64,000 bases of DNA from Candidatus Altiarchaeota archaeon (GCA_016931955.1 JAFGDV010000012.1:37510-101509); one strand, 5' to 3'; counted from the first letter of the stretch, positions 21,919 to 34,720 are shown. Translations and numbers: made by a program. Notes: generated from the letters alone by a model not told the origin.

Positions 21919-21924
21919 AGCATA

Positions 21925-22025
21925 CAATCTGACATAGGATACGTGTTCTACGAGATCGAGCTTGCTCTTACCGCCCCCATGCGGTCGACGAAGGGGATGG
22001 AAATAGCCGCAGACCAGGATCTCTA
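21925..22025. repeat. Degenerate copy of the 3' end of GT2 gene 28347-29063 (att-like)
   Basis: ctgacataggatacgtgttctacgagatcgagcttgctcttaccgcccc… aligns to 28375-28440. Near-identical to the copy at 26521-26590. Confidence 0.6.
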
Positions 22026-22118
22026 AGAGGATAGGGATACAGCCGCCTGAGACACTAAAAGCCCACCGAAACATCTGATAACGGAGTTGTTACTTTCTGG
22101 TGTAGCATTTTTAAACAT

Positions 22119-22140
22119 ATGTTACGTTATAATGTAACAT
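22119..22140. promoter_or_regulatory. Perfect palindrome ATGTTAC-N8-GTAACAT between a TATA-like ttttaaac and the ATG of ATPase 1
   Basis: atgttacgttataatgtaacat overlaps start codon 22139. Operator-like position on a leaderless promoter. Confidence 0.35.
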
Positions 22141-23419
22141 GGAACTACGTAAATTAGCCGAAGCCAACCCCTGGTGGCAGACCAAAAAAGTACCACAAAA
22201 CCTCCGAGGACGCGACAGACCCAAATACAGACTACTCCTAAAATCAATCACACAAAAAGAAGTCACAATAATAACCGGAGTCAGACGCTCAGGAAAAAGC
22301 ACACTAATGTACCAGACCATAGACAACCTACTCAAAGAAAAAACACCCCCAAAACAGATACTATTCGTCAACCTAGAAGACCCAAGACTCACAAACGACA
22401 CACTAGACGACATATACGAAGCATACAGAAGCGGAATCAACCCCGACCAGAAGGCACACATCTTCCTAGACGAAATACACCGAAGAGAAAACTGGGAAAA
22501 ATGGGTCAAAAGACACTACGACCTCGGCACAGACTGCAAATTCACAATCTCAGGATCATGCTCATACCTCCTGAAAAAAGAATACTCAACACTACTCACA
22601 GGCAGAAACCTCACCTTCGAAGTATTCCCCCTAAGCTTCCAAGAATACCTCACCTTCAAAGGCATCAACTTAGACGCCGAAGCACTGGAAAAAGACATCC
22701 TCCTAGAGAAACAGAGACACGAAATCCAGAAGGCGATGAACGAATACATGGAAGAAGGAGGCTTCCCAGACGCGTTCTTCAAAGAAGAAGACTTCAAGAG
22801 ACTGCTCCTAACACAATACTTCGACGACATAATATACAAAGACATCGTAGACCGCCACGAACTAAACAGCCGCAAAACAAGAGACCTTGCACTATACCTC
22901 GCATCCAACATCACCTCCCCACTATCCCTCAGAAACATCAGAAACACGCTCGGACTATCCTACGAATCAATAAAAGACTACATCACATACTACGCCGAAG
23001 CATTCCTCTTCTTCACAGTCGAACACTTCTCCTACTCCCTCAAAGAACAGAAGACACGCCCCTCAAAAGCATACTGCATAGACAACGGCCTCCGAAACGC
23101 AGTAAGCTTCAAGTTCACAAAAGACGACGGAAAACTAGCCGAAAACCTAGCCTACCTCCACCTAAGACAAAACAAAGACGACATATACTACTGGAAAGAC
23201 AAAAACGAAGTAGACTTCATAACAAAAAACCCCGACCACACACTAACCGCCATAAACGTCACATACACAGATGAAGTGGACGAAAGAGAAATAAAGTCGC
23301 TCAAAGAATTCAAACAAAAACACAAAAAAACACAAGAACTCATAATAATCACAAAAAACACCCAAAAAACACAAGAAGAAATCAAGTACATACCACTATG
23401 GAAGTGGCTGCTAGAATAG
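22139..23419 (+). CDS. COG1373-type ATPase (AAA_14 + DUF4143-like)
   Basis: N-terminal NPWW, Walker A GVRRSGKSTLM, Walker B …IFLDEIH…, C-terminal …IPLWKWLLE*. Strongly A/C-skewed coding strand. Confidence 0.7.
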   Translation: MELRKLAEANPWWQTKKVPQNLRGRDRPKYRLLLKSITQKEVTIITGVRRSGKSTLMYQTIDNLLKEKTPPKQILFVNLEDPRLTNDTLDDIYEAYRSGINPDQKAHIFLDEIHRRENWEKWVKRHYDLGTDCKFTISGSCSYLLKKEYSTLLTGRNLTFEVFPLSFQEYLTFKGINLDAEALEKDILLEKQRHEIQKAMNEYMEEGGFPDAFFKEEDFKRLLLTQYFDDIIYKDIVDRHELNSRKTRDLALYLASNITSPLSLRNIRNTLGLSYESIKDYITYYAEAFLFFTVEHFSYSLKEQKTRPSKAYCIDNGLRNAVSFKFTKDDGKLAENLAYLHLRQNKDDIYYWKDKNEVDFITKNPDHTLTAINVTYTDEVDEREIKSLKEFKQKHKKTQELIIITKNTQKTQEEIKYIPLWKWLLE

Positions 23420-23454
23420 AGACTAACCCAGATACTCCGAGGTTTAATTTACAT

Positions 23455-23481
23455 TTGCCGCCCACGCGGTCGACGAATAAA
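23455..23481. repeat. Short relic of the GT2 3'-end repeat (gccgcccacgcggtcgacgaa)
   Basis: Matches the ccgcccccatgcggtcgacgaa core of the copies at 21961 and 26540. Confidence 0.4.
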
Positions 23482-23530
23482 CAAAATTTGCCGTTACAAG
23501 GGCAAAGTTTTAAAAGAAAATTCACCCACA

Positions 23531-23576
23531 AATGCAATATTTATGCATAAATATTGCAATAGACTGCAATATTTAA
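23531..23576. promoter_or_regulatory. Nested palindromic operator-like element (three TGCAATATTT/AAATATTGCA half-sites; ATTTATGCATAAAT)
   Basis: Upstream of ATPase 2. A paralogous ~50-bp copy lies at 29132-29185. Confidence 0.35.
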
Positions 23577-23599
23577 ATACAACAACCACTATATATAAC

Positions 23600-24925
23600 A
23601 TGGACAAAAACACCCTCAGAGCAACAATAATATCACAAAAAAAAGAAACAAAAAAAATACTAAAACAAGAAAAAATCATAGAAAGAGAACTACAAAAAGA
23701 AACAGAAAAACAACTAAAAAACAACCTCATCAAGATCACCACAGGCGTCAGAAGATGCGGAAAATCAACCCTCGCCCTACAAACACTCCAAGACAAAGAA
23801 CACGCCTACATCAACTTCGACGACGAAAGACTCTACAAGATCACGACAAAAGACCTCGACACAATCCTAGAAACACTATATGAAGTATACGGAAACTTCA
23901 AATACCTCCTCCTAGACGAAATACAGAACATACCTGGATGGGAGCTATACGCAAACAGACTACAAAGACAAGGCCTCAACCTCATAGTAACCGGAAGCAA
24001 CGCAAAACTACTAAGCAAAGAACTTGCAACACACCTAACAGGAAGACACATCACACTTGAACTATACCCCTTCTCCTTCAGAGAATACCTAAGCTACCAC
24101 AAAATCAGCCCCCAAAAAGAAGACCTACAAATCGCAGAAGGCATCGGAAAAATCAAAAAACACCTAAGAGACTACATAGAAAAAGGCGGATTCCCCGAAA
24201 CATACAAAATCAAAGACAACACAAGATACCTAAAAGACCTCTACAACTCCATCATAAACCAAGACATCATAAGCAGATACAACATAAAATACGCAAACAC
24301 GCTAAGAGAGATAATCTCCTACACCATCTCAAACTACGCAAGCCCAATAACCTACAAAAAAATAAAAAACATATTCGACATAAAAAGCCAACACACAATA
24401 AAAAACTACCTCTACTACGCAGAAGAATCATACCTGATAACCCAGAGCCTACAATACACACACAAAATAAAAGAACAAACACGACTGCCCAAAAAAATCT
24501 ACGCCATAGACACAGGCCTCATAAAAGCAATAGGATTCAAGGCATCAGAAAACACCGGCAGACTAATGGAAAACCTCATCGCAATAGAACTACAGAGAAA
24601 AAAAACACAAAACCCCCTCCTAGAAATATACCACTGGAGAGACTACCAAAAAAGAGAAGTCGACTTCGCAGTCAAAGAAGGCCTAAAAGTAAAGGAACTA
24701 ATCCAGGCATGCTACGACATCGAAGACCCAAAAACAAAGGAGAGGGAAGAAAAAGCATTGATAAAAGCCGGGAAAGAACTCAGATGCAAAAACCTCAAAA
24801 TAATAACCTGGGACCACGAAGAAACAGGGAGAATAGAGTATATCCCACTATGGAAGTGGCTGCTGCAGCCGACGGGTTTTGTCCCGGCGACTGAGGAGAA
24901 TGTAGTGCCTAACCCAACAAATTAG
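23600..24925 (+). CDS. COG1373-type ATPase paralog
   Basis: Start chosen at MDKNTLRA (23600). Walker A GVRRCGKSTLA. C-terminal …IPLWKWLL, then a read-through tail. Confidence 0.65.
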   Translation: MDKNTLRATIISQKKETKKILKQEKIIERELQKETEKQLKNNLIKITTGVRRCGKSTLALQTLQDKEHAYINFDDERLYKITTKDLDTILETLYEVYGNFKYLLLDEIQNIPGWELYANRLQRQGLNLIVTGSNAKLLSKELATHLTGRHITLELYPFSFREYLSYHKISPQKEDLQIAEGIGKIKKHLRDYIEKGGFPETYKIKDNTRYLKDLYNSIINQDIISRYNIKYANTLREIISYTISNYASPITYKKIKNIFDIKSQHTIKNYLYYAEESYLITQSLQYTHKIKEQTRLPKKIYAIDTGLIKAIGFKASENTGRLMENLIAIELQRKKTQNPLLEIYHWRDYQKREVDFAVKEGLKVKELIQACYDIEDPKTKEREEKALIKAGKELRCKNLKIITWDHEETGRIEYIPLWKWLLQPTGFVPATEENVVPNPTN

Positions 24926-24964
24926 GCACCAAACCCAAAAAAAACACCCCGAATAGGGGAAAAC

Positions 24965-26311
24965 CTAAGGCAACCCCAATAAAGAGAAAAGCCACGCCGG
25001 AATATAATATATTACTATACTATCTGTTCCCCCTCTCCTCAGCTGATTCCTCGTCACCAAAACCGCCTCACCTACACCGTATTTTTCGCAGAATTTAGTT
25101 AGGCTACGAATGTCTTTCTTGTTAATGTAGGTCTGATACTTGACTTCGACAGGCAGCAGCCTTTTGTCCGCTAATACAATATCCACCTCATCCTTCTGCG
25201 GCGTACGCCAGAAAGATATCTTCTGCAGACTACCCACTATCTGAGACTCTATGAGATGACCTGCTATCCCACCACCTTCAAGCATGCTAAAGGGTTGATC
25301 CAATAACGCCAACACAATAGATGGGTGGACTATGAACTGTTTCTTGCTTGCACGCACCTGCTTAGATACGTTGACAGAGTAGTTGTAGGCCACCTTAATC
25401 AGAAAAGATTTCTCTAGTAGGCTTACATACTCTGCCGCCTGATTTCGGTTAATCCTGAGGTTGCCTGCTATGTTCACCAACTCAAAGAGTTGGGCGTTCG
25501 CCGCAGCCAGCAGCCTGAGCAATTCGTAGACCACGTTCTCATTCCCCCTGCTAGCCCGACTTATGTCTTCGACGGTTTTCTCTATCACCGACTCCCGAAT
25601 ATACTTTTTAATGTATTCTTCGTCGTCTTCGTCAAACAGCTCAGGGAAGGCGCCCCTCTCCAAGTATTGGATGAACAGTTCCATGTATCTAGCCCTATTC
25701 GCAGCGAAATGCAGGTCATATTCTCGTATCATGTTTTCGTTCAAGGCTATCTCGTCCCTAAGACCAAAGTATCTCACAAACTCCCTGAAGGAAAGTACTG
25801 GCAGATGAAAGGATAGTATCCTGCCGGCAAGCGTTTCCCTGTATTTCCTCAGCTCAAGAGACGATGACCCGGAGACAAAAATCTTCAGGTTCTCTTCGGT
25901 GTCATAGACAGTCTTAAGGAGATCAGGGAAGTTAGGAAGCTTCTGCACCTCGTCGAGGAAAAGATACCTCATACCTTTCCCATCAGAAAACTCCAGAAAG
26001 TAGTTGATTAGATCCCATGCCACCTCATACCTCTGGAAGTCTATGTCGTCGAAGGAGATATAGCAGACGTTCTTTTCTTCGGTCTTCACCAGAAGCTTCT
26101 TTATCATCTGCTTGAGTAAGACAGTCTTGCCTACGCGCCGCAGACCCACGACTGCCAGAATCTGCCTATTTTGACAGTATTTGAGTAGGTCTCCCATGAG
26201 GTCTCTCTCAAACTCTGGAGTAGTGAAGTCTTTTTTCTCCCACCACGGGTTCTGCCTGAAAAGCAGTCTACTGTGTCTTTCGTCCATCGTATTATCTATT
26301 AGGAAGAACAT
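24965..26311 (-). CDS. COG1373-type ATPase paralog
   Basis: …QNPWWEKKDF…GLRRVGKTVLL…YIPAWLFSLL. Confidence 0.65.
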   Translation of the reverse strand: MFFLIDNTMDERHSRLLFRQNPWWEKKDFTTPEFERDLMGDLLKYCQNRQILAVVGLRRVGKTVLLKQMIKKLLVKTEEKNVCYISFDDIDFQRYEVAWDLINYFLEFSDGKGMRYLFLDEVQKLPNFPDLLKTVYDTEENLKIFVSGSSSLELRKYRETLAGRILSFHLPVLSFREFVRYFGLRDEIALNENMIREYDLHFAANRARYMELFIQYLERGAFPELFDEDDEEYIKKYIRESVIEKTVEDISRASRGNENVVYELLRLLAAANAQLFELVNIAGNLRINRNQAAEYVSLLEKSFLIKVAYNYSVNVSKQVRASKKQFIVHPSIVLALLDQPFSMLEGGGIAGHLIESQIVGSLQKISFWRTPQKDEVDIVLADKRLLPVEVKYQTYINKKDIRSLTKFCEKYGVGEAVLVTRNQLRRGGTDSIVIYYIPAWLFSLLGLP

Positions 26312-26321
26312 CCTTATAAAG

Positions 26322-26380
26322 TTTATGCACTAAAAACGTGCACAAAATAAAATTTTATGCACAAAAACTGTGCACAGAAT
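26322..26380. promoter_or_regulatory. Tandem 27-bp operator-like repeat, each unit with a TGCAC-N8-GTGCA inverted repeat
   Basis: tttatgcactaaaaacgtgcacaaaat / tttatgcacaaaaactgtgcacagaat, directly upstream of ATPase 3 on the minus strand. Confidence 0.35.
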
Positions 26381-26415
26381 CTAAAAAGCCACAAGATTAA
26401 GAACGACGCTATTGA

Positions 26416-26600
26416 TTATCTCCCCAAAAAACCAGGGAAAGCATTCAAACACTACGAATAAAAAAAGAACTGGAAAAACTGAAACATATAGTCTACATCA
26501 CAGAAGAAGAAAAAAACTAAAGGCCGAGCTTGCTCTTACCGCCCCCATGCGGTCGACGAAGGAGATGGAGATGGCCGCAGACCCTCAACTGCCCCAGACC
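26416..26600. repeat. Direct repeat: ~105-bp intergenic segment plus a degenerate GT2 3'-end copy (partner at 28246-28440)
   Basis: tccccaaaaaaccagggaaagcattcaaacactacgaataaaaaaag… aligns with 28246-28350. gagcttgctcttaccgcccccatgcggtcgacgaagg aligns with 28406-28440 and is near-identical to 21961-22000. Confidence 0.65.
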
Positions 26601-26710
26601 CCTTGCCACAGAATCCTCAGACATTATAAGGTACAGATGACAAAAAACATAGTATTCCATCAGATACAACCAACAATATTTAAACCCAGAAAACAAAAAT
26701 AAGATAAAAG

Positions 26711-28093
26711 ATGACAATCATCGACTCCCTGAAAGCCCAAAACGAATGGTGGAAGACCGGGAAAGTACCCACAGCACTCCTAAAAAAAACCAAAAGAGAA
26801 GAATACAAGACAGCAGAAAAACTCCTCAAAGAAGAAAGAATAACCGCAATAACCGGACCACGCAGAACCGGAAAAACAACCCTCCAATACCAGCTCATAC
26901 ACCACCTCCTCCAAGAAACCGAACCCAACAAGATACTCTACATATCCATGGACGACCCATCACTAAGACCCCACACACAAAACCTCCTACAAGAAATACT
27001 GGAAACCTACTACAGAGAAATCCTCCTCGAAGAAAAAAGAAACACACAAGTCCACGTCTTCATAGACGAAATACACTTCCACACAAACTGGGAACAATGG
27101 CTGAAAAAATACTACGACCAAAGATACCCAATAAAATTCACGATAACAAGCTCATCCTCAGCCCACCTATCACAGAAGTCAAAAGAAAGCCTCGTCGGAC
27201 GAATCATCGAAATACTACTACTCCCCCTAAGCTTCAGAAGCTACCTCGCCCTCACAGGAAAAAACCAGCTCACAGAACACTACAACAAACTCAGCCTCGA
27301 AACAATAGACGCAGACAAAAGATTCCAGCTGCTAAAACACGAAGAAGAAGCACGGATCATGTTCTCAAAATACCTCCTATACGGAGGACTGCCCGAGTCC
27401 ATAAAAACAGGAGAAATACACCTATGGCAGGAAAAACTAATATCAGACGTCCTAAGAAAAGTTATATACAGAGACATCACAGGACTCTACGACGTCAGAA
27501 CACCCACAAAACTCGAAGACCTCTTCGTCCACCTCACATACAACACCAGCAAAACATTCTCATACACCTCCCTCTCCCAAAACCTCGGCATAAGCACAGA
27601 AGCCATAATAAACTACACACGCTACCTCCAGGAATCCTACCTCATAGGCGAACTACGACTCCACACAAAAAGCATCGAAAAAAGCCTCCGAGCCAACAGA
27701 AAATACTTCATAATGGACTGCGGACTACAGAACGCCATAACAAAAACCACCGACCTAACCGAAGCCAACACAGGCCCACTAATAGAATCCACAATCGAAA
27801 AACACCTCTACGCATACGCCAAAAAAGAAAACCACAACCTACACTACTGGAGAGAAAAAGAAGAAGTAGACATAATACTAGACACCAAAAAAAAGACACT
27901 ACCAATAGAGGTAAAATACAAAAACAAGATAAAAAAAGAAGACATGCGAGGACTACTCAAATTCATGGACAAATACAAAACAGACAAAGGATACATGATA
28001 ACCAAAGACCTCCTCCAAAAACAAAAAATCAACGGAAAAGAAATCCAACTAATACCAGCATGGCTATTCCTACTAGCAATACCCGCCGCCTAA
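26711..28093 (+). CDS. COG1373-type ATPase paralog
   Basis: …QNEWWKTGKVP…GPRRTGKTTLQ…LIPAWLFLLAIPAA. Confidence 0.65.
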   Translation: MTIIDSLKAQNEWWKTGKVPTALLKKTKREEYKTAEKLLKEERITAITGPRRTGKTTLQYQLIHHLLQETEPNKILYISMDDPSLRPHTQNLLQEILETYYREILLEEKRNTQVHVFIDEIHFHTNWEQWLKKYYDQRYPIKFTITSSSSAHLSQKSKESLVGRIIEILLLPLSFRSYLALTGKNQLTEHYNKLSLETIDADKRFQLLKHEEEARIMFSKYLLYGGLPESIKTGEIHLWQEKLISDVLRKVIYRDITGLYDVRTPTKLEDLFVHLTYNTSKTFSYTSLSQNLGISTEAIINYTRYLQESYLIGELRLHTKSIEKSLRANRKYFIMDCGLQNAITKTTDLTEANTGPLIESTIEKHLYAYAKKENHNLHYWREKEEVDIILDTKKKTLPIEVKYKNKIKKEDMRGLLKFMDKYKTDKGYMITKDLLQKQKINGKEIQLIPAWLFLLAIPAA

Positions 28094-28245
28094 AAAAAAA
28101 AGACTGAGACAACAGCCTGCTTCTTTCCCGCCTGAACATATAAAAAGATCACTATTAGCATGATCATGGTTATACAATTCAGAAACCAAGTGACTGAACC
28201 CTAAGACCTGAAAGAAATAATAGGAAACAACAACGAATCAGCTTA

Positions 28246-28440
28246 TAATCTATCCCCAAAAAAAAACCAGGGAAAGCATTCGAACACTACGAATAAAAAA
28301 AGATCCAGGAAAAAACCAGCCTGCATCACAGAAGAAGAAAAAAAAACTACTTCAGATACAGGCGGAGACAATGCCTGACATAGGATAAGTGTTCTCCGAG
28401 ATTAAGCTTGCTCTTACCGCCCTCTCGGTCAATGAAAGTG
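28246..28440. repeat. Resident copy of the direct repeat (intergenic ~105 bp plus the genuine 3' end of the GT2 gene)
   Basis: See 26416-26600. Confidence 0.65.
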
Positions 28441-29063
28441 ATCGGGACCTCCTTGACTCGGGAATAGCGGCCGCGAACCAGTATTTCTAAGAGGATCTTG
28501 AAGCCGACCGGGTTAAGGACGACGCCGTCAATAACTTCTCTGCGGAAGAAGAAGAAACCAGAGACCGGATCCCTGACAGAGGTGAGGGGGCGAGCCAAGA
28601 GGACAGCACCCCGAGAGGTTAGACGACGACGAAGAGGCCAATTCTGGATACAACCGCCACGGACATAGCGGCTGCCGACGGAGACATCGGCTTCGCCCCG
28701 CAAAATAGGAGCCACCAAAGCAGGAATAGCGTCTAGGGGATGAGAGAAGTCGGCGTCCATGACGCCAAATATGCCGCCCGAAGCCTGAGAGAAGCCGGCG
28801 AGGACGGCAGAGGAAAGACCTAATTTGCCGGAGCGGACGATGATTTTAAGATCGGGGTAAGGGCTTTGAAGAGAACGGACGACTTCGGCGGAGCCATCTG
28901 GGCTGTTGTCGTCTACGATGATCAGTTCACCGCGGAGGTCGTTGCGGGAAAAAACCTTGAAGAAGGCAGGAATAAGCTTGGATAAGTTCTCGCGTTCATT
29001 ATAGGTGGGTACGACGACTGAGACCCTGGAGTTCTCCAAGGGAGGGAAAGAAGTCCTATGCAT
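28347..29063 (-). CDS. GT2 dolichol/polyprenol-phosphate mannosyltransferase-like (Dpm1-type, soluble form)
   Basis: …VSVVVPTYNERENL…VDDNSPDGS…DADFSHP… GC-rich (core-like) composition, unlike its neighbours. Confidence 0.7.
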   Translation of the reverse strand: MHRTSFPPLENSRVSVVVPTYNERENLSKLIPAFFKVFSRNDLRGELIIVDDNSPDGSAEVVRSLQSPYPDLKIIVRSGKLGLSSAVLAGFSQASGGIFGVMDADFSHPLDAIPALVAPILRGEADVSVGSRYVRGGCIQNWPLRRRLTSRGAVLLARPLTSVRDPVSGFFFFRREVIDGVVLNPVGFKILLEILVRGRYSRVKEVPITFIDREGGKSKLNLGEHLSYVRHCLRLYLK

Positions 29064-29131
29064 GATAAAGGATATAAACAGATACGGAAATAAATAAGTT
29101 TGCTGTTATGAGGTGGGGATAATCTACCCAC

Positions 29132-29185
29132 GGATGCAATAGTTATGCATAGATATTGTAATAGACTGCAGTATTTGGATACGAT
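29132..29185. repeat. Copy of the ATPase-2 upstream palindromic element
   Basis: ggatgcaatagttatgcatagatattgtaatagactgcagtatttggatac is ~85% identical to 23531-23580. Confidence 0.45.
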
Positions 29186-29209
29186 AATAAAAGATCACTG
29201 AGGGATAAT

Positions 29210-29245
29210 GGGAGGGGCTGCTAGGATAGAGGAGTTGATACCCCA
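29210..29245. repeat. Relic of the ATPase 3'-terminal motif plus the left 21-bp direct repeat of the AbiE-like module
   Basis: tgggaggggctgctaggatagag matches tggaagtggctgctagaatagag (23401-23423) at 20 of 23 positions. gatagaggagttgatacccca recurs at 31174-31193. Confidence 0.5.
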
Positions 29246-29307
29246 GTAGTCGTCGAGGACAAAGGAGAAGAAAGCCCCACGCATTTTACGGAACATACAC
29301 GGTAATG

Positions 29308-29350
29308 TACTAAAAATAGTAAAAAAAATGATATTTTACTAAAAATAGTA
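29308..29350. promoter_or_regulatory. Two TACTA-N4-TAGTA palindromes 29 bp apart next to a TATA-like tttatagg, upstream of the AbiEi-like gene
   Basis: tactaaaaatagta at 29308-29321 and 29337-29350. ATG at 29379. Confidence 0.4.
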
Positions 29351-29378
29351 TTTATAGGTGAAAAACACATAACATAAC

Positions 29379-30221
29379 ATGCTAGAACTGATCTACGGGA
29401 CAAAAACAAAGACCAGGATACTGGAAGAGCTCGCAACAGCAGGAAAACCAAAGACCAGAAAAGAACTAATAGAGCTGACAGGATGCGGCACCAGGGGAGT
29501 ATACGAGCAGACAGAGGAACTAATAACCCTAGGCATAGTCAAAGAAACCAAGAAAGGCTGGAAAAAACTAGAGCTAAACCCAGAACACCCACTATACCAG
29601 GACATCAAAAACACGGCACTCGCAGCAATAGACTACAAAAAAAACCTCATAAAAAACCTCCTCCAGACAATAGACCAAATACTAGAAGACGACTACTATA
29701 TCGGATTCTACACAGCAGCCACAAAAAAAATCACACCAATCGACTACACACCAGAGAAACACGTATACAAGGTACTGGACACAGAATACGAAAAAAAAAT
29801 AAAGAAAATCAAAACATACGACAAACTAAGGGAAATAGACATACAAAAAGAGAAAAAAGGGTTGATTAAGGCAGTATTCCTAAAATGCCAGAAAATCCCG
29901 GAAGACGTGACAAGAGAAGAAATACAAAACCAGGAAGTGTGGATAGCAAGCACGGAGAGGGGTATAGTAGAATGCTTCACCCCAGAAAACAAATACTTCA
30001 CCAGATACGGAAGCTGCCTGGCCCTGCTACAAAACAAAATAGAAAACACAATAGACGAAAAACAACTACTGAAAATAGCAGGAGAACTCAACATAAAAAA
30101 AGAACTAGTTAAAGTCATGGGCAGCTTCAACCACCACCTCAAAAAAAGACTATTCAACGCAGAACCCAACACAGAAGAGATCAAAGAAGTCAAACAGGCG
30201 ATAAACACGGTATTAGGATGA
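29379..30221 (+). CDS. AbiEi-like antitoxin / transcriptional regulator (N-terminal wHTH)
   Basis: TRILEELATAGKPKTRKELIELTGCGTRGVYEQTEELITLGIV winged-helix. Stop overlaps the start of the downstream NTase by 4 bp. Confidence 0.5.
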   Translation: MLELIYGTKTKTRILEELATAGKPKTRKELIELTGCGTRGVYEQTEELITLGIVKETKKGWKKLELNPEHPLYQDIKNTALAAIDYKKNLIKNLLQTIDQILEDDYYIGFYTAATKKITPIDYTPEKHVYKVLDTEYEKKIKKIKTYDKLREIDIQKEKKGLIKAVFLKCQKIPEDVTREEIQNQEVWIASTERGIVECFTPENKYFTRYGSCLALLQNKIENTIDEKQLLKIAGELNIKKELVKVMGSFNHHLKKRLFNAEPNTEEIKEVKQAINTVLG

Positions 30222-31177
30222 AGACAACATACACGACAGAAGAAAAAGAAGGGATCCTAGGCATAATAGAAACCTGGGGGAGAGAACAGATAACCCAAGA
30301 CGTCTTCAGAAAAATACAACTACAGACAGGCATACCTTCAGGACTGATAGAGACAACATTCTGGCACATAGACACACTCTATCAGCTGAAAAAACTCGAA
30401 AAACCACCCATATTCAAAGGAGGAACCTGCGTACAATGCTACATCCCAGCAGGCCTGCAGAGAGCATCAAACGACCTAGACTTCAATTCAAGGATAGCCA
30501 ACCCAGCCACCATAAGGGAGCAGATAAAAAAACTAAACAAAAAACTGCTAAACAAAGGAAACGCCACACAGATAAAAAAATACGGCGAAAGAATAAGCTA
30601 TGGAACATTCGACTACCAGCTAAAAGACGAAATATCCGGTGTTATAACATTCAACAGGAGAATGCCCTCCCGCCTTGGAGAATACGTCAAAGCAGGCGAA
30701 CTAGAGGTTCAGGCAAAAAACATGAAAATCCAGGTAAACTACAAACACGCCTGGATGCCCGCAATAAAGACGATAGACAAAAAACCAAGATTCTTCATAC
30801 TCGAACACCAAAAAATGAAAGGATTCACCTACCCAAGCTCAAGCCTGAACGACCTAATCGCCGACAAAATACTTGCAACAACAAAAGAAACGGGGAGAGA
30901 ACGATTCAAAGACGTATACGACCTGATGACTCTGTTCATGCAAAAATACGAGAAAAAACAGATACTCGAGAAACTGGAGAGGATACTGGAGAAGAAAGGG
31001 CAACAACCAGAGACCACGATAAAATCCTCGGCAACGAATATCGGGAGATTCACAGAAAAAAGCCTCGAAGCACAAGGATTCAAAAGCCTCGTATGCAAAG
31101 ACGGCAGAAAACTCATAGAAAACTGGGAAACCAACTGCTTAAAGCTAACAGAGAAGATGAACTCGTTGCTGAGATAG
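30218..31177 (+). CDS. AbiEii-like nucleotidyltransferase toxin (DUF1814 / Pol-beta NTase fold)
   Basis: FKGGTCVQCYIPAGLQRASNDLDFNS matches the hGG…DhDh NTase motif of AbiEii-family toxins. Translationally coupled to the upstream wHTH gene. Confidence 0.55.
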   Translation: MKTTYTTEEKEGILGIIETWGREQITQDVFRKIQLQTGIPSGLIETTFWHIDTLYQLKKLEKPPIFKGGTCVQCYIPAGLQRASNDLDFNSRIANPATIREQIKKLNKKLLNKGNATQIKKYGERISYGTFDYQLKDEISGVITFNRRMPSRLGEYVKAGELEVQAKNMKIQVNYKHAWMPAIKTIDKKPRFFILEHQKMKGFTYPSSSLNDLIADKILATTKETGRERFKDVYDLMTLFMQKYEKKQILEKLERILEKKGQQPETTIKSSATNIGRFTEKSLEAQGFKSLVCKDGRKLIENWETNCLKLTEKMNSLLR

Positions 31178-31194
31178 AGGAGTTGATCCCATGG
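31174..31194. repeat. Right 21-bp direct repeat of the AbiE-like module (gatagaggagttgatcccatg)
   Basis: Matches 29225-29245 at 20 of 21 positions. Overlaps the toxin stop codon. Confidence 0.5.
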
Positions 31195-31354
31195 AAGACC
31201 CCTTGAGGAGGAGGCTTCTCGATTAATCTTGATTAAAGATCTCATGGTATAACCTTTAACTTCAATAGGGAGGTAGGGGTAGGGTGATATGCGTATTTAT
31301 ATACTTATGTTCACTATAGTATACAAAATATGAGGAATTTGTTCACCGAATAAG

Positions 31355-32641
31355 ATGGAGCACAGAAAAATCATAATACAATGGAAAGAATACACACCAC
31401 CGAAGACACAACCCAGAGAAGTGAACATCGACCCCACAACAGACTTCATCACCACAATAACAGGCCCAAGAAGAGCAGGCAAAACATACCTCTGCTACCA
31501 GCTAATGAACCACCTAATAGACAAAGGAACCCCCCGAGAAAACATCCTATACGTGAACTTCGAAGACGAAAAACTCATAGGGGCTAAAGCAGCAGACCTC
31601 GAAAAACTGATGAACACATTCCAAGAACTAACAGACACCAACCCAGAACACAACACCTACCTCTTCCTCGACGAAATACAGAACGTCAAAGACTGGGACG
31701 CATGGATAAGGAGAATACACGACACCCAAAAAAACGTGAAACTAATACTCACAGGCTCATCCTCCAAGATGCTAAGCCGAGAAGTCACAACAAAACTACG
31801 CGGCAGAATACTAAACCACGAAGTATACCCCCTAAGCTTCAAAGAATACCTCACATGGAAAAACACCCCATACAACCTAAAAACACTAACAGAAAGCAGA
31901 GACAGAATCGAAGTAAAAAAACAATACAATGAATACCTGACAAACGGAGGCTACCCCACAATAGCACTCAACCAAGCACCCAGAGAACAGATACTCCAAA
32001 GCTACTACGAATCAATGATATTCAAGGATGTGGTAGAAAGACACAACATCAAAGACGTCAAAAAACTGCGCATACTCGCAAAACTACTATTCGAATCCAC
32101 ATCAAAAGAGATGTCCTACAACAGGCTAGCAAACAAACTCAAATCCCTCGGATTCACAGCAAGCAAAAACACCATAATAGAACACATCAGCCACTTCGAA
32201 GACGCATACCTATTCTTCCAGAACATGAAACACGAGTACTCCATCACAAAACGGATGGGTGCGATAAAAAAGATCTACTGCATAGACAACGGACTACTCA
32301 ACACAGTCAGCTTCAAATTCGCAGAAGACACCGGAAAACTGATGGAAAACCAAGTCTACATAGAACTAAAACGCAGAAACAAACAAGTCTACTACCACAA
32401 AGACAAACACGAATGCGACTTCCTCACACAAGAAAAAAACAAGATCACATCAGCCATACAAGTAACCCACACACTAAACGACGAAAACGAAGACCGAGAA
32501 ATAAACGGCCTACTTGAAGCCATGAGAACCCACAACCTACAAGATGGAACCATCCTCACCTTCGAACAAGAAGAGACAAGAAAAAAAGACGACAAAACAA
32601 TACGGATCACACCAGTCTGGAAGTGGCTGCTGGAGACATGA
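31355..32641 (+). CDS. COG1373-type ATPase paralog
   Basis: …ITGPRRAGKTYLCY…FLDEIQN…ITPVWKWLLET*. Confidence 0.65.
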   Translation: MEHRKIIIQWKEYTPPKTQPREVNIDPTTDFITTITGPRRAGKTYLCYQLMNHLIDKGTPRENILYVNFEDEKLIGAKAADLEKLMNTFQELTDTNPEHNTYLFLDEIQNVKDWDAWIRRIHDTQKNVKLILTGSSSKMLSREVTTKLRGRILNHEVYPLSFKEYLTWKNTPYNLKTLTESRDRIEVKKQYNEYLTNGGYPTIALNQAPREQILQSYYESMIFKDVVERHNIKDVKKLRILAKLLFESTSKEMSYNRLANKLKSLGFTASKNTIIEHISHFEDAYLFFQNMKHEYSITKRMGAIKKIYCIDNGLLNTVSFKFAEDTGKLMENQVYIELKRRNKQVYYHKDKHECDFLTQEKNKITSAIQVTHTLNDENEDREINGLLEAMRTHNLQDGTILTFEQEETRKKDDKTIRITPVWKWLLET

Positions 32642-32711
32642 GATCGAAAGAAAAACAGACCAGAGAGTATCTTTGTTGACCAAAATTTATAAATAATGGA
32701 CAACATAGATG

Positions 32712-32788
32712 TAAAGTGATAACATGGGACCGCGAAGAAAAAGGGAGAATAGAATACATACCACTATGGAAGTGGCTGCTGGAATAAA
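32712..32788 (+). pseudogene. 3'-terminal fragment of a COG1373 ATPase gene (ATPase-2-like)
   Basis: ataacatgggaccgcgaagaaaaagggagaatagaatacataccactatggaagtggctgctggaataa is ~88% identical to 24799-24866. No upstream ORF. Confidence 0.5.
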
Positions 32789-32984
32789 GAGGTTATTTCA
32801 TAGATGGCTGCTTGAGGCAGAAAGAGAAGAGCCCAGAAGAGAGCAAGGTAGTGCCCTGGAAAAGGCAAGATATAAAGGAGGTGAGGGGAAATAGGGGATA
32901 TAGTAGGGGCTCCGATGAATGCATCCCAACGAGGATAGAGAGAAAAGCTTTTAATCCCATATCGACAGAATACTTTAAGAGAAG

Positions 32985-33185: not shown

Positions 33186-34060
33186 CGCTGAGAAGAGAAT
33201 TAAAGAAAAAATTCACTTATACGGGAGAACTAGAACCCGGGAAGATTTCAGAGTTAAAGGAGATAGTAGAGGAAGCCAGGAAACTGAAGAAGTATGTTAC
33301 GGCATGTAATGTAACAGACAACCCGCAAGCTTATGCGTACATAAGCAGCCTGGCGGCGTCGTATATGATACAGGAGAAGGCCGGGATGGAGGCCATATAT
33401 CAGCTGACTTGCAGAGACAGGAATCGATTAGCGCTGACTTCAGAGCTGCTGGGGGCGGCGGCGCTGGGGATAAAGAATGTGCTGGCGTTGACTGGAGACT
33501 ACACTACGTTGGGGGATATGCCTGAGGCGAAGCCTGTATTTGATTTAGATGCGTGCCGGCTAGTGCATATGATCAAGGAGATGAACGAGGGAAGAGATAT
33601 AAAGGGGAACCGAATAGAACCTAGGACGGAATTCTTTATCGGAGTCGCAGCGAACCCCAACGCTATACCATTAGAACCGGAGATACTGAAGCTGGAGAAG
33701 AAAGAAAAAGTGGGGGCGGAATTCGTGCAGACTCAGGTAGTGTATGAGATGGAGATAGTAGAGAATTTCCTGGAGGCAACGAAGAACGTGGAGATACCGA
33801 TACTGATCGGGGTGTTCCCGCTGAGATCATACGGGGTAGCGGAGTACTTCGACAAGAACGTGCCCGGAGTCAAGGTACCCGAAAAACTGTTGAAGGAACT
33901 GAAGGAGATAAAGGAGGCTGGGGGGGCTCGGGAGGAATACGATAAAGTCAATGAAAGATTCTTTTCCGGACTAATAAAAGGGATAAAGAAGACTGATGCG
34001 AGGGGATGCCATATAATGGCGGTGAATTACTCGGAGATTGTGGAGAAGCTGGTCGTCTAA
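33173..34060 (+). CDS. metF: Methylenetetrahydrofolate reductase-like (MetF)
   Basis: 295-aa TIM-barrel MTHFR signature (…VTDNPQAYAYISSLAASYMIQEKAGMEAIYQLTCRDRNRLAL…ALTGDY…). Confidence 0.65.
   Translation: MHEMTLRRELKKKFTYTGELEPGKISELKEIVEEARKLKKYVTACNVTDNPQAYAYISSLAASYMIQEKAGMEAIYQLTCRDRNRLALTSELLGAAALGIKNVLALTGDYTTLGDMPEAKPVFDLDACRLVHMIKEMNEGRDIKGNRIEPRTEFFIGVAANPNAIPLEPEILKLEKKEKVGAEFVQTQVVYEMEIVENFLEATKNVEIPILIGVFPLRSYGVAEYFDKNVPGVKVPEKLLKELKEIKEAGGAREEYDKVNERFFSGLIKGIKKTDARGCHIMAVNYSEIVEKLVV
34001..34053. repeat. 53-bp direct repeat (genuine 3' end of metF), left copy
   Basis: aggggatgccatataatggcggtgaattactcggagattgtggagaagctggt. Partner at 34721-34773 with 2 mismatches. Confidence 0.7.
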
Positions 34061-34398
34061 GTTTTTTCCATAAGGATCTTTTTGATGATGGGTCTGACCA
34101 CTGGTATGTCCTCCTTCACGACAAGCCACACCCTCTTAGGGTCCATCCCAAAGTAGAAATGGATAGCCTTATCCCTCATACCCGCTATATCCCGCCAAGG
34201 CACTTCAGGATGCTTATCCTTCACAGGAGAAGGCACGTTTTTTGCCGCTTCGCCTATGACCTCGACACATCGGATGACGGCTTATTGAGTCTTCTCATCC
34301 CCTAAAAACACGTCATAAGACATATCTCTGATGAATTCCTCGGCAAGCTCCATGTTCTCCAACATATCCTTCAGATAGATTGACACGTTCCTTTTCAT
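34057..34398 (-). pseudogene. HEPN (DUF86) toxin gene with an in-frame TAA stop
   Basis: Minus-strand translation gives MKRNVSIYLKDMLENMELAEEFIRDMSYDVFLGDEKTQ*AVIRCVEVIGEAAKNV…RDKAIHFYF… (Rx4HxY HEPN motif). The stop is at 34282-34284. Start overlaps the MNT stop by 2 bp (34396-34397). Confidence 0.5.
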
Positions 34399-34688
34399 AC
34401 ATAAACCGCCTCCTCTAGGACTCTATCCCGCAACTCAGCGCGAAGATCCTTTTTAGGAACAACATCAGCCTTAACGCCGAGAACATCACCCAAGAAATTC
34501 TCCAAGCCAACAATCCTGAGAAGACTCACCGGCTCCTCGAATTCGACGAGGAAGTCAACATCACTTGACTCATCCTGCTCACCCCTGACATAAGACCCAA
34601 AAACACCGATACTCTTAACCATAAACCTCCTCGAAAGCTCAGCCCTATGCTTAGACAAAGCAGTCCTAATGTCACCAAGGGTTACCAT
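34395..34688 (-). CDS. Minimal nucleotidyltransferase (MNT) antitoxin
   Basis: GVFGSYVRGEQDESSDVDFLVEF, the Pol-beta NTase motif of MNT antitoxins. 97 aa. Confidence 0.7.
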   Translation of the reverse strand: MVTLGDIRTALSKHRAELSRRFMVKSIGVFGSYVRGEQDESSDVDFLVEFEEPVSLLRIVGLENFLGDVLGVKADVVPKKDLRAELRDRVLEEAVYV

Positions 34689-34720
34689 ATTAGGATATTG
34701 GACTTAGAAACTATAAGCCA

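What the first reader, a model, noticed from the sequence alone, without database searches (positions are those of the whole stretch)
23395..32790. Conserved 3'-terminal nucleotide motif TGGAAGTGGCTGCTRGA recurs at the ends of cassettes, including non-ATPase ones
The motif ends ATPase 1 (23395-23423), ATPase 2 (24843-24869) and ATPase 5 (32611-32640). It also ends an orphan 77-bp ATPase 3' fragment only ~110 bp after ATPase 5 (32712-32788). A 20-of-23 relic lies at 29210-29232, fused to the left 21-bp repeat of the AbiE-like module. The AbiEii gene itself terminates in a look-alike (…ctgctgagatag…, protein …SLLR* versus …WLLE*). ATPases that are otherwise only moderately similar in protein sequence keep near-identical nucleotides here. 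That pattern suggests a shared recombination (att/attC-like) site at cassette 3' ends rather than protein constraint alone.
Basis: seen in the sequence. Interest (0 to 1): 0.65.

Follow-up and report, generated by a model that had tools for sequence, protein, structure and literature searches.

The report
Shared gene-end motif marks recombination-built cassette array
The repeated 17-base motif is simply the coding sequence for the conserved last amino acids of a family of candidate anti-virus ATPases. It sits in an archaeal gene island that grew by repeated insertions, each copying the end of a neighbouring gene, not by an integron-like attachment site.

Summary
The motif occurs 4 times with at most 1 mismatch plus one 3-mismatch relic, all within 23.4-32.8 kb (0.23 matches expected by chance).

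The motif encodes W-K-W-L-L-E, the end of the peptide (I/V)PLWKWLL. This peptide is present in 102 of the 120 best homologues of ATPase 1, and its codons vary freely between genomes.

However, the motif uses the genes' rare G-ending codons (10/12 against 7%).

Every cassette in the island is bracketed by a duplicated end of the adjacent gene:
- mannose-synthase 3' stubs flank the ATPases;
- an ATPase 3' end flanks AbiE, which explains the AbiEii look-alike;
- the MTHFR 3' end flanks a HEPN/MNT pair.

The same architecture recurs in a syntenic relative (thyA 5' stubs) and in other archaeal genomes. There, divergent co-resident paralogues share near-identical 3' ends.

No recombinase gene was found in the 64 kb, the junctions form no hairpin, and the breakpoints in host genes vary. 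An att/attC-like site is therefore not supported.

Most likely the cassettes were added by homology-driven recombination, with the motif acting as a crossover and deletion hotspot. The mechanism is inferred, not shown.

The parts
23399..23415 (+). Motif copy 1. These are the last codons (W K W L L E) of ATPase 1.
   Evidence: Exact match; translation.
24851..24867 (+). Motif copy 2, inside ATPase 2. The ORF continues for 19 more codons, and that tail has ordinary rather than A+C-rich composition.
   Evidence: One mismatch; codon map; G+T fraction rises from 0.32 upstream to 0.48 downstream.
32618..32634 (+). Motif copy 3, at the end of ATPase 5 (..PVWKWLLET*).
   Evidence: Exact match. The orthologue T4 in L147 has TGGAAATGGCTGCTGGAG at this position.
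32713..32790 (+). Orphan 3' stub of an ATPase-2-like gene. It contains motif copy 4 (32767-32783) and has its own stop codon.
   Evidence: 88% identity over 69 nt to 24797-24865 and 94% over 36 nt to 23387-23422; tblastn E = 9e-10 against ATPase 2.
32803..32828 (+). Second, shorter ATPase 3' stub (..WLLEAERE). It resembles the tail of the ATPase 5 orthologue T4 (WLLEAGT*).
   Evidence: Local alignment to L147 R1, z = 4.5.
29118..29187 (+). Promoter and operator relic of an ATPase-2-type gene. No coding body follows it.
   Evidence: 83% identity over 65 nt to 23516-23580, E = 2.5e-12.
29209..29242 (+). Degenerate ATPase 3' stub (W E G L L G *) plus 14 nt. This is the left copy of the direct repeat that brackets the AbiE module.
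   Evidence: 3-mismatch motif hit; 20/23 match to the end of ATPase 1; direct repeat D9, z = 4.3-7.9.
29379..31177 (+). AbiE-type two-gene module. The AbiEi-like gene is 29379-30221 and the AbiEii toxin gene is 30218-31177.
   Evidence: Pfam AbiEii E = 2e-16; PADLOC AbiEii E = 6e-14 and AbiEi E = 5e-4, the latter weak.
31164..31190 (+). Right copy of the direct repeat. It supplies the last codons (L L R *) of AbiEii and is a duplicated ATPase 3' end.
   Evidence: 21/24 match (23/27 in frame) to 29216-29242.
22139..23419 (+). ATPase 1, a member of COG1373 and of the candidate defence family PDC-S01. Its own promoter lies at 22082-22138 and carries two GTTAC-N8-GTAAC boxes.
   Evidence: Pfam; PADLOC E = 7e-111; the promoter boxes are conserved across phyla.
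23600..24925 (+). ATPase 2. The ORF opens at 23543, but the likely start is 23600. A perfect 26-nt palindrome lies at 23533-23558 in its promoter.
24965..26311 (-). ATPase 3. It lies on the opposite strand, has ordinary base composition and ends ..IPAWLFSLLGLP.
   Evidence: 76% identical to T3 of L147.
26711..28093 (+). ATPase 4. It ends ..IPAWLFLLAIPAA and does not carry the nucleotide motif.
31355..32641 (+). ATPase 5, the orthologue of T4 in L147 (81% amino-acid identity, 85% nucleotide identity).
28347..29063 (-). Intact housekeeping gene for polyprenol monophosphomannose synthase (GT2). The cassette arrays lie on both sides of it.
   Evidence: Pfam; source names and orthologues; synteny with L147.
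21924..22015 (-). J1, a decayed copy of the last roughly 30-45 codons of the GT2 gene. It sits next to the intact small ORF 21667-21918 and upstream of ATPase 1.
   Evidence: 82% identity to 28368-28442 and 95% to J2; translates to ..ILLEILV..FVDR.GGKSKL.. with a frameshift.
23435..23477 (-). J1.5, a short GT2 3' stub (..FVDRVGGKCKLNLG..). It begins 15 nt after the stop codon of ATPase 1.
   Evidence: Local alignments to J3, J1 and J2, z = 5.0-7.2; translation.
26525..26583 (-). J2, a GT2 3' stub lying between ATPase 3 and ATPase 4.
   Evidence: 95% identity over 59 nt to J1. The Logan unitigs break here.
26426..26516 (+). Left copy of a 91-nt direct repeat. The right copy is 28261-28344, immediately before the GT2 stop codon. 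Together they bracket ATPase 4.
   Evidence: 83.5% identity, E = 2e-20; also found in the flank screen.
34001..34773 (.). HEPN/MNT toxin-antitoxin cassette (34072-34688, minus strand). It is bracketed by a 53-nt direct repeat, 34001-34053 and 34721-34773, that duplicates the last codons of the MTHFR-like gene (33173-34060).
   Evidence: 96% identity; Pfam NTP_transf_2 and MTHFR.

Best explanation
**What the motif is (shown).** It is the coding sequence for the C-terminal peptide (I/V)PLWKWLL(E) of one large clade of COG1373 ATPases. These proteins have an AAA_14 domain and a DUF4143 domain and belong to the candidate phage-defence family PDC-S01. The motif marks 'cassette ends' because it is the gene end.

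**What the region is (shown).** Window 21.9-34.8 kb is a defence and toxin-antitoxin island built from small self-contained cassettes: five ATPases, each with its own promoter, one AbiE pair and one HEPN/MNT pair. Each cassette or block is bracketed by a direct repeat of 24-91 nt that duplicates the end of the gene next to the insertion point.

**How it most likely arose (inferred).**
1. Cassettes are added by homology-dependent recombination. One route is Campbell-type integration of non-replicating circles that carry a cassette plus a piece of the neighbouring host gene. Such circles could form by loop-out between the same repeats in other cells of the population.
2. Each addition leaves a stub of the host gene, or of an ATPase 3' end when the neighbour was an ATPase.
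3. The W-K-W-L-L coding stretch is the only run of nucleotide identity shared by otherwise saturated paralogues. It therefore acts as a preferred crossover and deletion end point.
4. The motif is homogenised together with the adjacent junction repeat by gene conversion. This keeps the same rare codons in all copies within one genome.

No dedicated att site or recombinase is needed.
For: **Peptide, not nucleotide, conservation.**
- 102 of 120 top homologues of ATPase 1 contain the peptide.
- Codons differ freely in 15 distant loci.
- They also differ in the closest A+C-rich orthologues: L145 has TGGAAATGGCTACTA and L017 has TGGAAATACCTCCTG.

**Bracketing repeats in the window.**
- J1 and J2: 59 nt, 95% identical.
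- J1.5: z = 5-7.
- 91-nt repeat around ATPase 4.
- 24-27-nt repeat around AbiE.
- 53-nt repeat around HEPN/MNT.
- All are confined to 21.9-34.8 kb.

**Syntenic relative L147.** The GT2 gene is followed by R0 - T4 - R1 - T3 - T2 - R2 - ... - T1 - thyA. R0 to R2 are stubs of the first 55-125 nt of thyA.

**Other genomes.**
- L008 has R0 - gene1 - R1 - gene2 - R2, with repeats 89-91% identical, and R0 starts exactly after the Leu-Leu codons.
- L146 paralogues share -79..+91 relative to the stop codon.
- L066 paralogues share 55 nt at 98%.
- L002 paralogues share 47 nt at 94%.
- 8 of 49 ATPase genes have flanking repeats stronger than every control. These include host-gene 3' ends in L133 and L006.

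**Signs of concerted evolution.**
- The Lys codon is AAG in all 4 window copies but AAA in all 3 copies in L147, orthologues included, and in both copies in L146.
- 10 of 12 motif codons end in G, against 7% in the bodies.
- Stub lengths cluster: three stubs carry only 17-34 nt of ATPase sequence and one carries 78 nt. Only that one was found by tblastn.

**Nothing pointing to site-specific recombination.**
- No recombinase among about 63 ORFs.
- No hairpins at the junctions.
- No Rfam match and no tRNA.
- The ends of the host-gene stubs differ from event to event.
Against: - No circular intermediate, empty site or polymorphic arrangement was observed. The mechanism rests on architecture only.
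- Campbell-type integration needs the donor DNA to carry the recipient's host-gene end already. That explains spread within a population but not the first capture.
- In the window the intact ATPases share only 17-27 nt, and their tails are not shared (tail identity 0.16-0.36). Evidence for gene conversion is therefore stronger in L146, L008 and L066 than in the window itself.
- G- or T-ending codons cluster in these genes in general: 19.5% after another such codon, and 27% after TGG. Part of the rare-codon signal could therefore be a context effect.
- Stubs were detected through the motif, so stubs lacking it would be missed.
- Two multi-ATPase loci, L007 and L143, show no shared 3' ends.
- A recombinase encoded elsewhere in the genome cannot be excluded.
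Confidence: 0.55

Rival explanations
1. Site-specific recombination with the enzyme supplied in trans. The cassettes would be integrase-less 'satellite' elements, comparable to integron cassettes in clusters of attC sites lacking an integrase (CALINs), or to cargo-only elements in tRNA-targeting arrays. The gene-end repeats would be att sites recognised by a recombinase encoded elsewhere in the genome.
For: - Discrete cassettes are bracketed by direct repeats made of gene ends. This is the classic att signature.
- The arrays contain toxin-antitoxin modules, as chromosomal integrons do.
- Solo repeat copies sit at the head of the arrays in L008 and L147.
- CALINs without IntI are common in archaeal MAGs (PMC9668308).
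Against: - No tyrosine or serine recombinase or transposase among about 63 ORFs of the window, nor next to the L008 and L066 arrays.
- The repeats have no sequence in common between loci, or between events at one locus.
- Their distal ends fall at different positions: thyA at about nt 55, 62 and 125, and three different GT2 end points.
- No single-strand hairpin structure.
- The cassettes carry their own promoters, and one is inverted.
Confidence: 0.15
2. Nothing beyond protein constraint and ordinary gene decay. Under this reading the motif is identical because two Trp codons and conserved residues fix most bases. The remaining synonymous matches are chance or sequence-context effects. The stubs are random leftovers of deletions, and the flanking repeats are unrelated tandem duplications.
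For: - Terminal codon identity is no higher than in the gene bodies.
- The peptide is near-universal.
- G-ending codons are enriched after TGG in general, 6 of 22.
- The exact 20-mer turns up in dozens of unrelated ATPase genes, and even in an unrelated IS1595-family transposase.
- The relic sits where relatives have an intact ATPase gene.
Against: - 10 of 12 G-ending codons against 7% in the bodies remains improbable even if the chance per codon is set at 25%, as a context effect might allow.
- Within-genome fixation of AAG or AAA cuts across orthology.
- Shared non-coding flanks downstream of divergent paralogues in L008, L146 and L147 cannot be due to protein constraint.
- Stub starts cluster within 15 nt of a 1.3-kb gene.
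- The AbiE and HEPN/MNT cassettes have precise gene-end duplications.
Confidence: 0.2
3. Self-homing. The PD-(D/E)XK nuclease domain (DUF4143) of the ATPase would cut at or next to the 3' end of resident paralogues, and repair of the break would copy the cutter's gene into that site. The ATPase gene would then be a selfish single-gene element that targets the motif.
For: - DUF4143 is classified in the PD-(D/E)XK superfamily (PMC3424549).
- New cassettes repeatedly sit directly after ATPase 3' ends, and breakpoints cluster at the motif.
- The family is spread across phyla at 60-65% identity and occurs on 219 plasmids.
Against: - Non-ATPase cassettes (HEPN/MNT next to MTHFR) show the same bracketing without any motif.
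- Many ATPase cassettes sit after ordinary host genes.
- No biochemical evidence exists.
- Homing does not normally create flanking duplications.
Confidence: 0.05

Closest known systems
Chromosomal integron cassette arrays and CALINs, including archaeal ones (Ghaly et al. 2022, PMC9668308)
   Same: - Tandem arrays of diverse cassettes are separated by similar, genome-specific repeats at the 3' ends of the ORFs.
- Toxin-antitoxin cassettes occur among them.
- Solo sites sit at the head of the array.
- No integrase lies next to many such arrays.
   Different: - The junction repeats are stubs of adjacent host genes, not attC sites.
- They do not fold into hairpins, and no R'/R'' core sequences were recognised by eye in the junctions looked at.
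- The cassettes are about 1.3-kb genes with their own promoters, and one is inverted.
- No IntI was found.
Integrative elements that target the end of a gene and carry a surrogate end. Examples are tRNA- or protein-gene-targeting islands and tandem 'tycheposon'-type arrays with partial-tRNA repeats (bioRxiv 10.1101/2020.12.28.424599, listed; not read here, comparison from general knowledge)
   Same: - The intact host gene is retained.
- A displaced stub of its end is left on the far side of each insert.
- Serial insertions give a row of stubs.
   Different: - The inserts are single genes or toxin-antitoxin pairs of 0.7-4.5 kb, with no integrase or replication genes.
- Stub lengths and end points vary between events.
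- The targets are whichever gene lies next door: GT2 3' end, thyA 5' end, MTHFR 3' end or an ATPase 3' end.
Concerted evolution and gene conversion between paralogues, and defence-island hotspots between core genes that lack mobility genes (from general knowledge)
   Same: - Synonymous variants are fixed within a genome across non-orthologous paralogues.
- Cassette content turns over between conserved flanking genes. The GT2 locus holds arrays in both the window and L147.
   Different: - The converted tract is tiny, about 20-170 nt, and sits at the boundary between gene body and junction.
- Additions are accompanied by duplication of a gene end, which simple replacement by double crossover would not produce.
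COG1373 / PDC-S01 ATPases (AAA_14 + DUF4143, with a PD-(D/E)XK domain; PADLOC-DB v2; PMC3424549)
   Same: All five ATPases are full-length members: Pfam E = 1e-35 to 1e-41 for AAA_14, and PADLOC PDC-S01 E = 1e-57 to 1e-118.
   Different: Nothing differs at the protein level. I found no report of arrays with shared 3' ends and host-gene stubs in the papers searched. That search is limited.

Membership tests
Integron / CALIN (attC-type cassette array) | An integron integrase (a tyrosine recombinase with the IntI-specific domain) adjacent to the array or present in the genome | tested here: not met
   No recombinase or transposase Pfam hit in about 63 ORFs covering the whole 64-kb window. The rest of the genome could not be searched.
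Integron / CALIN (attC-type cassette array) | attC sites: imperfect palindromes that fold as single strands | tested here: not met
   DNA folding of 12 junction sequences on both strands (window, L008, L146) gave z-scores from -1.7 to +1.2. No dedicated attC covariance model was available.
Integron / CALIN (attC-type cassette array) | Short, mostly promoterless cassettes in one orientation | tested here: not met
   The cassettes are about 1.3-kb genes with conserved promoter and operator boxes of their own. ATPase 3 and its orthologue T3 are inverted.
Integrase-mediated integrative element with att in a gene end | Direct repeats made of the end of the target gene bracketing the insert, with the gene kept intact | tested here: met
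   GT2 3' stubs J1, J1.5 and J2; MTHFR 3' repeat; thyA 5' stubs in L147; host-gene ends in L133 and L006.
Integrase-mediated integrative element with att in a gene end | An integrase gene on the element, and a fixed crossover core shared by all events at a site | tested here: not met
   The inserts contain only an ATPase or toxin-antitoxin genes. Stub end points differ between events.
COG1373 / PDC-S01 ATPase | AAA_14 P-loop domain followed by DUF4143, and a match to the PADLOC PDC-S01 models | tested here: met
   for all five genes.
AbiE (type IV toxin-antitoxin / abortive infection) | AbiEii nucleotidyltransferase toxin preceded by an AbiEi antitoxin with a winged helix-turn-helix (wHTH) domain | tested here: inconclusive
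   AbiEii is clear (Pfam E = 2e-16, PADLOC E = 6e-14). The upstream gene has only a weak AbiEi hit (PADLOC E = 5e-4) and no Pfam hit. The two genes overlap by 4 nt.
Gene conversion / concerted evolution of paralogue 3' ends | Paralogues within a genome are more alike at the tract than orthologues between genomes, and the likeness extends into non-coding flank | tested here: met
   - AAG in 4 of 4 window copies; AAA in 3 of 3 L147 copies, including orthologues.
- L146, L008, L066 and L002 pairs exceed the 99.9th percentile or the maximum of 2039 between-genome pairs.
- In the window itself the tails are not shared, so the result for the window alone is weak.
Known structured RNA overlapping the motif | A match to an Rfam family at 21.5-33.3 kb | tested here: not met
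   Only two sub-threshold hits (E = 0.6-0.8), neither at the motif.

The most novel reading that the evidence does not exclude
Small defence and toxin-antitoxin cassettes may form a previously unrecognised class of recombinase-less mobile cassettes in archaea (Altiarchaeota, Woesearchaeota, Nanohaloarchaeota, Methanosarcinales). The class would include single COG1373/PDC-S01 ATPase genes with their own operators, AbiE pairs and HEPN/MNT pairs. They would insert at the very ends of resident genes and duplicate 24-177 nt of that gene end. The conserved ATPase 3' end would serve as a reusable landing pad, so that arrays nucleate and grow behind an existing ATPase.
Probability: 0.2. Interest if true: 0.75.

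Novelty: new variant of a known kind. Interest (0 to 1): 0.5.

Why it matters
How defence and toxin-antitoxin genes move in archaea that lack obvious mobile-element machinery is poorly understood. If the architecture seen here is general, it offers a simple, searchable signature of cassette gain. It was found in six unrelated genome loci and in 8 of 49 ATPase genes screened.

It would also suggest that short conserved coding ends, together with duplicated host-gene stubs, are enough to build and reshuffle defence islands by homologous recombination alone.

There is a practical caution as well. A conserved 3' nucleotide motif in a multi-copy gene family can look like an att site although it is only a conserved peptide.

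Tried and rejected
Codon identity was 63% in the terminal region and 67% in the bodies (p = 0.80). Extreme codon bias makes this metric uninformative, so I replaced it with a rare-codon test.
2. **Eyeballed similarity of the sequences downstream of ATPase 1, the relic, the fragment and ATPase 2.** It was not significant against shuffles (z below 2) and I dropped it. Only the AbiE repeat and the match between the ATPase 1 downstream region and GT2 survive.
3. **attC-like hairpins.** None found.
4. **Known RNAs and tRNAs.** None found.
5. **Metagenome scan for CCANTNTGGAAGTGGCTGCT.**
   - About 45 of 121 hits are an unrelated bacterial IS1595-family transposase that happens to contain PLWKWLL.
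   - About 22 hits are chance.
   - No non-ATPase cassette end was found this way.
6. **Genome-wide mapping of the motif.** This was impossible because the source MAG is not in genome contigs.
7. **Searches of viral contigs with ATPase 1 and with a 27-sequence profile.** No relatives were found.
8. **Five-paralogue alignment as a locus query.** It was too divergent to use.
9. **Codon-context explanation for AAG and CTG.** The identity of the following base explains little. There is a real clustering effect after G- or T-ending codons, but it is too weak to explain the result alone.
10. **Literature.** I found no report of these arrays.

Full report
**1.

The 17-mer TGGAAGTGGCTGCTRGA is exact at 23399, 32618 and 32767. 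It has one mismatch at 24851 and three at 29209. Allowing up to three mismatches gives seven hits against 0.23 expected, and no shuffle reaches seven. The two hits outside the island (40622, 47714) lie in unrelated sequence, and a tblastn search finds no ATPase remnant there.

The carriers are three of five paralogous ATPases:
- A1, 22139-23419;
- A2, 23600-24925;
- A5, 31355-32641.

All five ATPases are AAA_14 + DUF4143 proteins and are 25-37% identical to each other. A3 (24965-26311, minus strand) and A4 (26711-28093) end with a variant peptide, IPAWLF.., and lack the nucleotide motif. In A2 the ORF runs 19 codons past the motif.

The orphan fragment at 32713-32790 is a genuine 3' remnant of an A2-like gene (88% over 69 nt; tblastn E = 9e-10). 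The relic at 29209-29242 matches the end of A1 at 20 of 23 bases. It is preceded by an 83% copy of the A2 promoter region at 29118-29182.

Independent Logan assemblies reproduce 21965-34034 at 100% identity.

**2. What the motif encodes**

The source is a Candidatus Altiarchaeota MAG. A1 has homologues at 60-80% identity across Altiarchaeota, DPANN and Asgard lineages. Of the 120 best, 102 contain W-x-[W/F]-L-L, usually as (I/V)PLWKWLL, at or near the C-terminus.

Six of the 17 bases are two Trp codons, which have no synonyms. In 15 loci from other phyla the remaining codons vary freely, for example TGGAAATGGCTCTTA and TGGAAATGGTTATTA. The two closest orthologues of A1 that share its odd composition have TGGAAATGGCTACTA (L145) and TGGAAATACCTCCTG (L017). 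There is therefore no nucleotide-level conservation between genomes.

A metagenome scan for the extended 20-mer returned the following:
- ATPase 3' ends from many subfamilies;
- about 22 chance hits;
- about 45 copies of an unrelated bacterial IS1595-family transposase that happens to contain PLWKWLL;
- no non-ATPase cassette ends.

**3.

I made a codon-aware alignment of A1, A2 and A5. At positions with identical amino acids, codon identity is 266/395 (67%) in the gene bodies and 12/19 (63%) in the terminal 12 codons (p = 0.80).

That metric is blunted by a striking property of these genes. At fourfold-degenerate sites they are 93-95% A or C, with T at 1-4% and G at 4-10%. Bias alone therefore makes codon identity high everywhere.

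A more telling count looks at which codons are used. The Lys, Leu, Leu and Glu/Gln codons of the motif are G-ending in 10 of 12 cases. In the bodies 86 of 1230 eligible codons (7%) end in G or T (p = 3e-10). G- or T-ending codons do cluster in general: 19.5% after another such codon against 8.2% otherwise, and 6 of 22 after TGG. Even if the chance per codon is set at 25%, as such a context effect might allow, the pattern stays improbable.

Composition also switches at the motif. The G+T fraction is 0.25-0.32 in the 300 nt upstream and 0.43-0.50 in the 60 nt downstream. The read-through tail of A2 has ordinary composition.

**4. What brackets the cassettes**

The surrounding sequence gave the key result. 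Decayed copies of the last 15-45 codons of the housekeeping gene for polyprenol monophosphomannose synthase (GT2, 28347-29063, minus strand) lie between the ATPases:
- J1 at 21924-22015;
- J1.5 at 23435-23477, starting 15 nt after the A1 stop codon;
- J2 at 26525-26583.

J1 and J2 are 95% identical over 59 nt. J1.5 aligns to the others with z = 5-7. All three translate to recognisable GT2 C-terminal peptides.

Other bracketing repeats in the window are:
- a 91-nt repeat (26426-26516 and 28261-28344) around A4;
- a 24-27-nt repeat around the AbiE module, whose left copy is the ATPase 3' stub of the relic and whose right copy supplies the last codons and stop of AbiEii;
- a 53-nt repeat, 96% identical, around a HEPN/MNT pair further right (34072-34688). 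It duplicates the last codons of the MTHFR-like gene.

Every short direct repeat in the 64-kb window lies in 21.9-34.8 kb, apart from one inside a surface-protein gene. A fourth ATPase 3' stub, 32803-32828, resembles the tail of the A5 orthologue (z = 4.5).

**5. The same architecture elsewhere**

A syntenic relative, L147, comes from a 1.56-Mb contig and its GT2 is 72% identical. It keeps the order surface protein - small ORF - PMT_2 - GT2. On the promoter side of GT2 it has four ATPases:
- T4, the A5 orthologue (81%);
- T3, the A3 orthologue (76%), inverted and of ordinary composition, as A3 is in the window;
- T2, which is A2-like;
- T1.

These are interleaved with four copies of the first 55-125 nt of thyA. 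Only the last copy continues into an intact thyA gene, giving R0 - T4 - R1 - T3 - T2 - R2 - ... - T1 - thyA.

In other loci:
- In L008 (Woesearchaeota) two ATPases that are 44% identical sit in R0 - gene1 - R1 - gene2 - R2. The repeats are 89-91% identical and run from -41 to about +90-156 relative to the stop codon. The solo R0 starts exactly after the Leu-Leu codons, and an AbiE pair lies next to it.
- In L146 two ATPases, about 41-45% identical depending on the alignment, share -79..+91, including the start of the downstream gene.
- In L066 two ATPases share 55 nt at 98%. In L002 two share 47 nt at 94%.

Among 2039 divergent between-genome pairs, identity in the tail and downstream region averages 0.28 and never exceeds 0.64. 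The within-genome pairs in L146 and L008 reach 0.93 and 0.87.

I also screened 49 ATPase genes that had enough flanking sequence. Eight have an upstream/downstream direct repeat stronger than any mismatched-locus control. In L133 and L006 the repeat is the 3' end of the preceding host gene.

Two multi-ATPase loci, L007 and L143, show nothing of the kind.

**6. Why a dedicated recombination site is unlikely**

- None of the about 63 ORFs scanned across the window is an integrase or transposase. The flanks are glycosylation genes on one side and Wood-Ljungdahl and housekeeping genes on the other. There is none beside the arrays in L008 or L066. L002 has a TnpB gene nearby.
- Junction sequences show no single-strand structure (z from -1.7 to +1.2), no Rfam match and no tRNA.
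- The bracketing repeats share no sequence between loci. They are made of whichever gene lies adjacent: GT2 3' end, thyA 5' end, MTHFR 3' end, the 5' end of the β-lactamase-fold (Lactamase_B_2/RMMBL) gene downstream of the ATPase in L146, or an ATPase 3' end.
- Their distal ends fall at different positions in different events.
- The cassettes carry their own promoters. A1 has two GTTAC-N8-GTAAC boxes that are conserved from Altiarchaeota to Woesearchaeota, and A2 has a perfect 26-nt palindrome.

These points fail the defining features of integrons and CALINs as described in PMC9668308.

**7. Most likely mechanism (inferred)**

Cassettes are probably added by homology-dependent recombination that duplicates a gene end. 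The simplest route is Campbell-type integration of a non-replicating circle carrying a cassette plus a piece of the neighbouring host gene. Such circles are the expected loop-out products of repeat-flanked cassettes in other cells of the population.

The A1-A3 block is flanked by about 38 identical bases by my reading of the J1/J2 alignment, and the assembly graph breaks there.

The W-K-W-L-L coding stretch is the only run of nucleotide identity among paralogues that are otherwise saturated. Three observations fit the idea that it acts as a crossover and deletion hotspot:
- Three of the four ATPase 3' stubs in the window, and R0 of L008, start inside it or at its edge. Uniform truncation of a 1.3-kb gene would give much longer stubs.
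- AbiE landed on it.
- A+C-rich gene bodies meet ordinary-composition tails at it.

Gene conversion between adjacent junction repeats, ending in this conserved stretch, would explain why its synonymous sites are fixed within each genome. The Lys codon is AAG in all four window copies. It is AAA in all three L147 copies, including the orthologues of A5 and A2, and AAA in both L146 copies.

What is missing is direct evidence: no circles, empty sites or polymorphic arrangements were seen. The model also does not explain the first capture at a new site. Other routes cannot be excluded, namely capture at staggered breaks, a recombinase acting in trans, and self-homing by the ATPase's PD-(D/E)XK domain (PMC3424549).

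**8. Relation to what is known, and novelty**

The proteins are ordinary members of COG1373 and of the PADLOC candidate defence family PDC-S01 (E down to 1e-118). The family also occurs on 219 plasmids.

The island works like a small chromosomal cassette array and resembles integron or CALIN arrays and serial gene-end-targeting integrative elements. It fails their membership tests. I found no description of these ATPase arrays, of their shared 3' ends or of the host-gene stubs in the literature searched.

I rate it a new variant of a known kind. The motif itself is ordinary. The recombinase-less, stub-bracketed cassette architecture across several archaeal phyla is the interesting part.

Noticed in passing
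window 22139-32641 (A1, A2, A4, A5, AbiEi/ii); L147 T1, T2, T4; L145: The coding strand has an extreme composition. At fourfold-degenerate sites A is 49-55%, C 33-46%, G 4-10% and T 1-4% in the ATPases, and AbiE is milder. The same holds in relatives' cassettes. A3 and its orthologue T3, on the opposite strand, are ordinary. The lack of T removes stop codons, which creates long ORFs in other frames (22174-23274, 26746-28107). No cause was established.
   Followed up: partly
window 18500-45350: There is a regional strand asymmetry. At fourfold-degenerate sites the plus strand is T-poor (7-17%) whatever the gene orientation. Host genes are G-rich on the plus strand, for example MTHFR at G 56% and GT2 at C 54% on its own coding strand. 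GC content also changes from about 37% (1-18 kb, glycosylation cluster) to about 50% (35-64 kb).
   Followed up: partly
window 34001-34773: A HEPN/MNT toxin-antitoxin cassette is bracketed by a 53-nt direct repeat, 96% identical, made of the last codons of the MTHFR-like gene. The HEPN reading frame contains an internal stop codon.
   Followed up: yes
window 22082-22138 and 23516-23599; L002, L004, L017, L019, L020 upstream regions: The ATPase subfamilies carry their own conserved operator-like promoters. The A1 type has two GTTAC-N8-GTAAC boxes around a TATA-like box, kept from Altiarchaeota to Woesearchaeota. The A2 type has a perfect 26-nt palindrome, TGCAATATTTATGCATAAATATTGCA. This suggests autoregulation by a DNA-binding part of the ATPase, which I did not test.
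   Followed up: partly
L026-L135 (many loci, e.g. L027 1854-2846): A multi-copy bacterial IS1595-family transposase contains ..KLPLWKWLLCMYLMVNSS.., encoded by the identical 20-mer. It often lies at contig ends. This is a coincidental match that contaminates motif scans.
   Followed up: yes
window 21965-26554 (= L001) and 26533-34034 (= L142): Logan unitigs from SRR13394437 begin and end in the J1/J2 repeat. The A1-A3 block therefore forms a repeat-bounded loop in the assembly graph, which is compatible with linear, excised-circle or deleted variants.
   Followed up: partly
L066 8113-8260 and 10732-10879: A 148-nt direct repeat (84%) brackets two non-ATPase ORFs immediately downstream of an ATPase gene. 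This is another stub-bracketed block.
   Followed up: no
L008 2490-3949 and window 29379-31177: AbiEi/AbiEii pairs sit directly beside COG1373 ATPase arrays in two unrelated genomes, an Altiarchaeota and a Woesearchaeota.
   Followed up: no
L147 10747-12141 compared with window 21919-28346: In the relative, a PMT_2 gene follows GT2 in an overlapping operon before the small ORF and the surface-protein gene. In the window that position holds ATPases 1-4 and the GT2 stubs instead. A PMT_2 gene lies elsewhere in the window, at 11332-12789.
   Followed up: partly
L147 6709-6765 and 4042-4081 / 6579-6618: The relative's array contains promoter-only relics. One is an A1-type promoter copy with no gene behind it. 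Another is a 40-nt, 95% identical duplicate of the T2 promoter. These are comparable to the promoter relic at window 29118-29187.
   Followed up: no
window 20775-20857 and 20937-21019: There is an internal 83-nt repeat (83%) in the 1063-residue Cys-rich surface-protein gene (18474-21665). It corresponds to repeated CGGPC-type modules.
   Followed up: no
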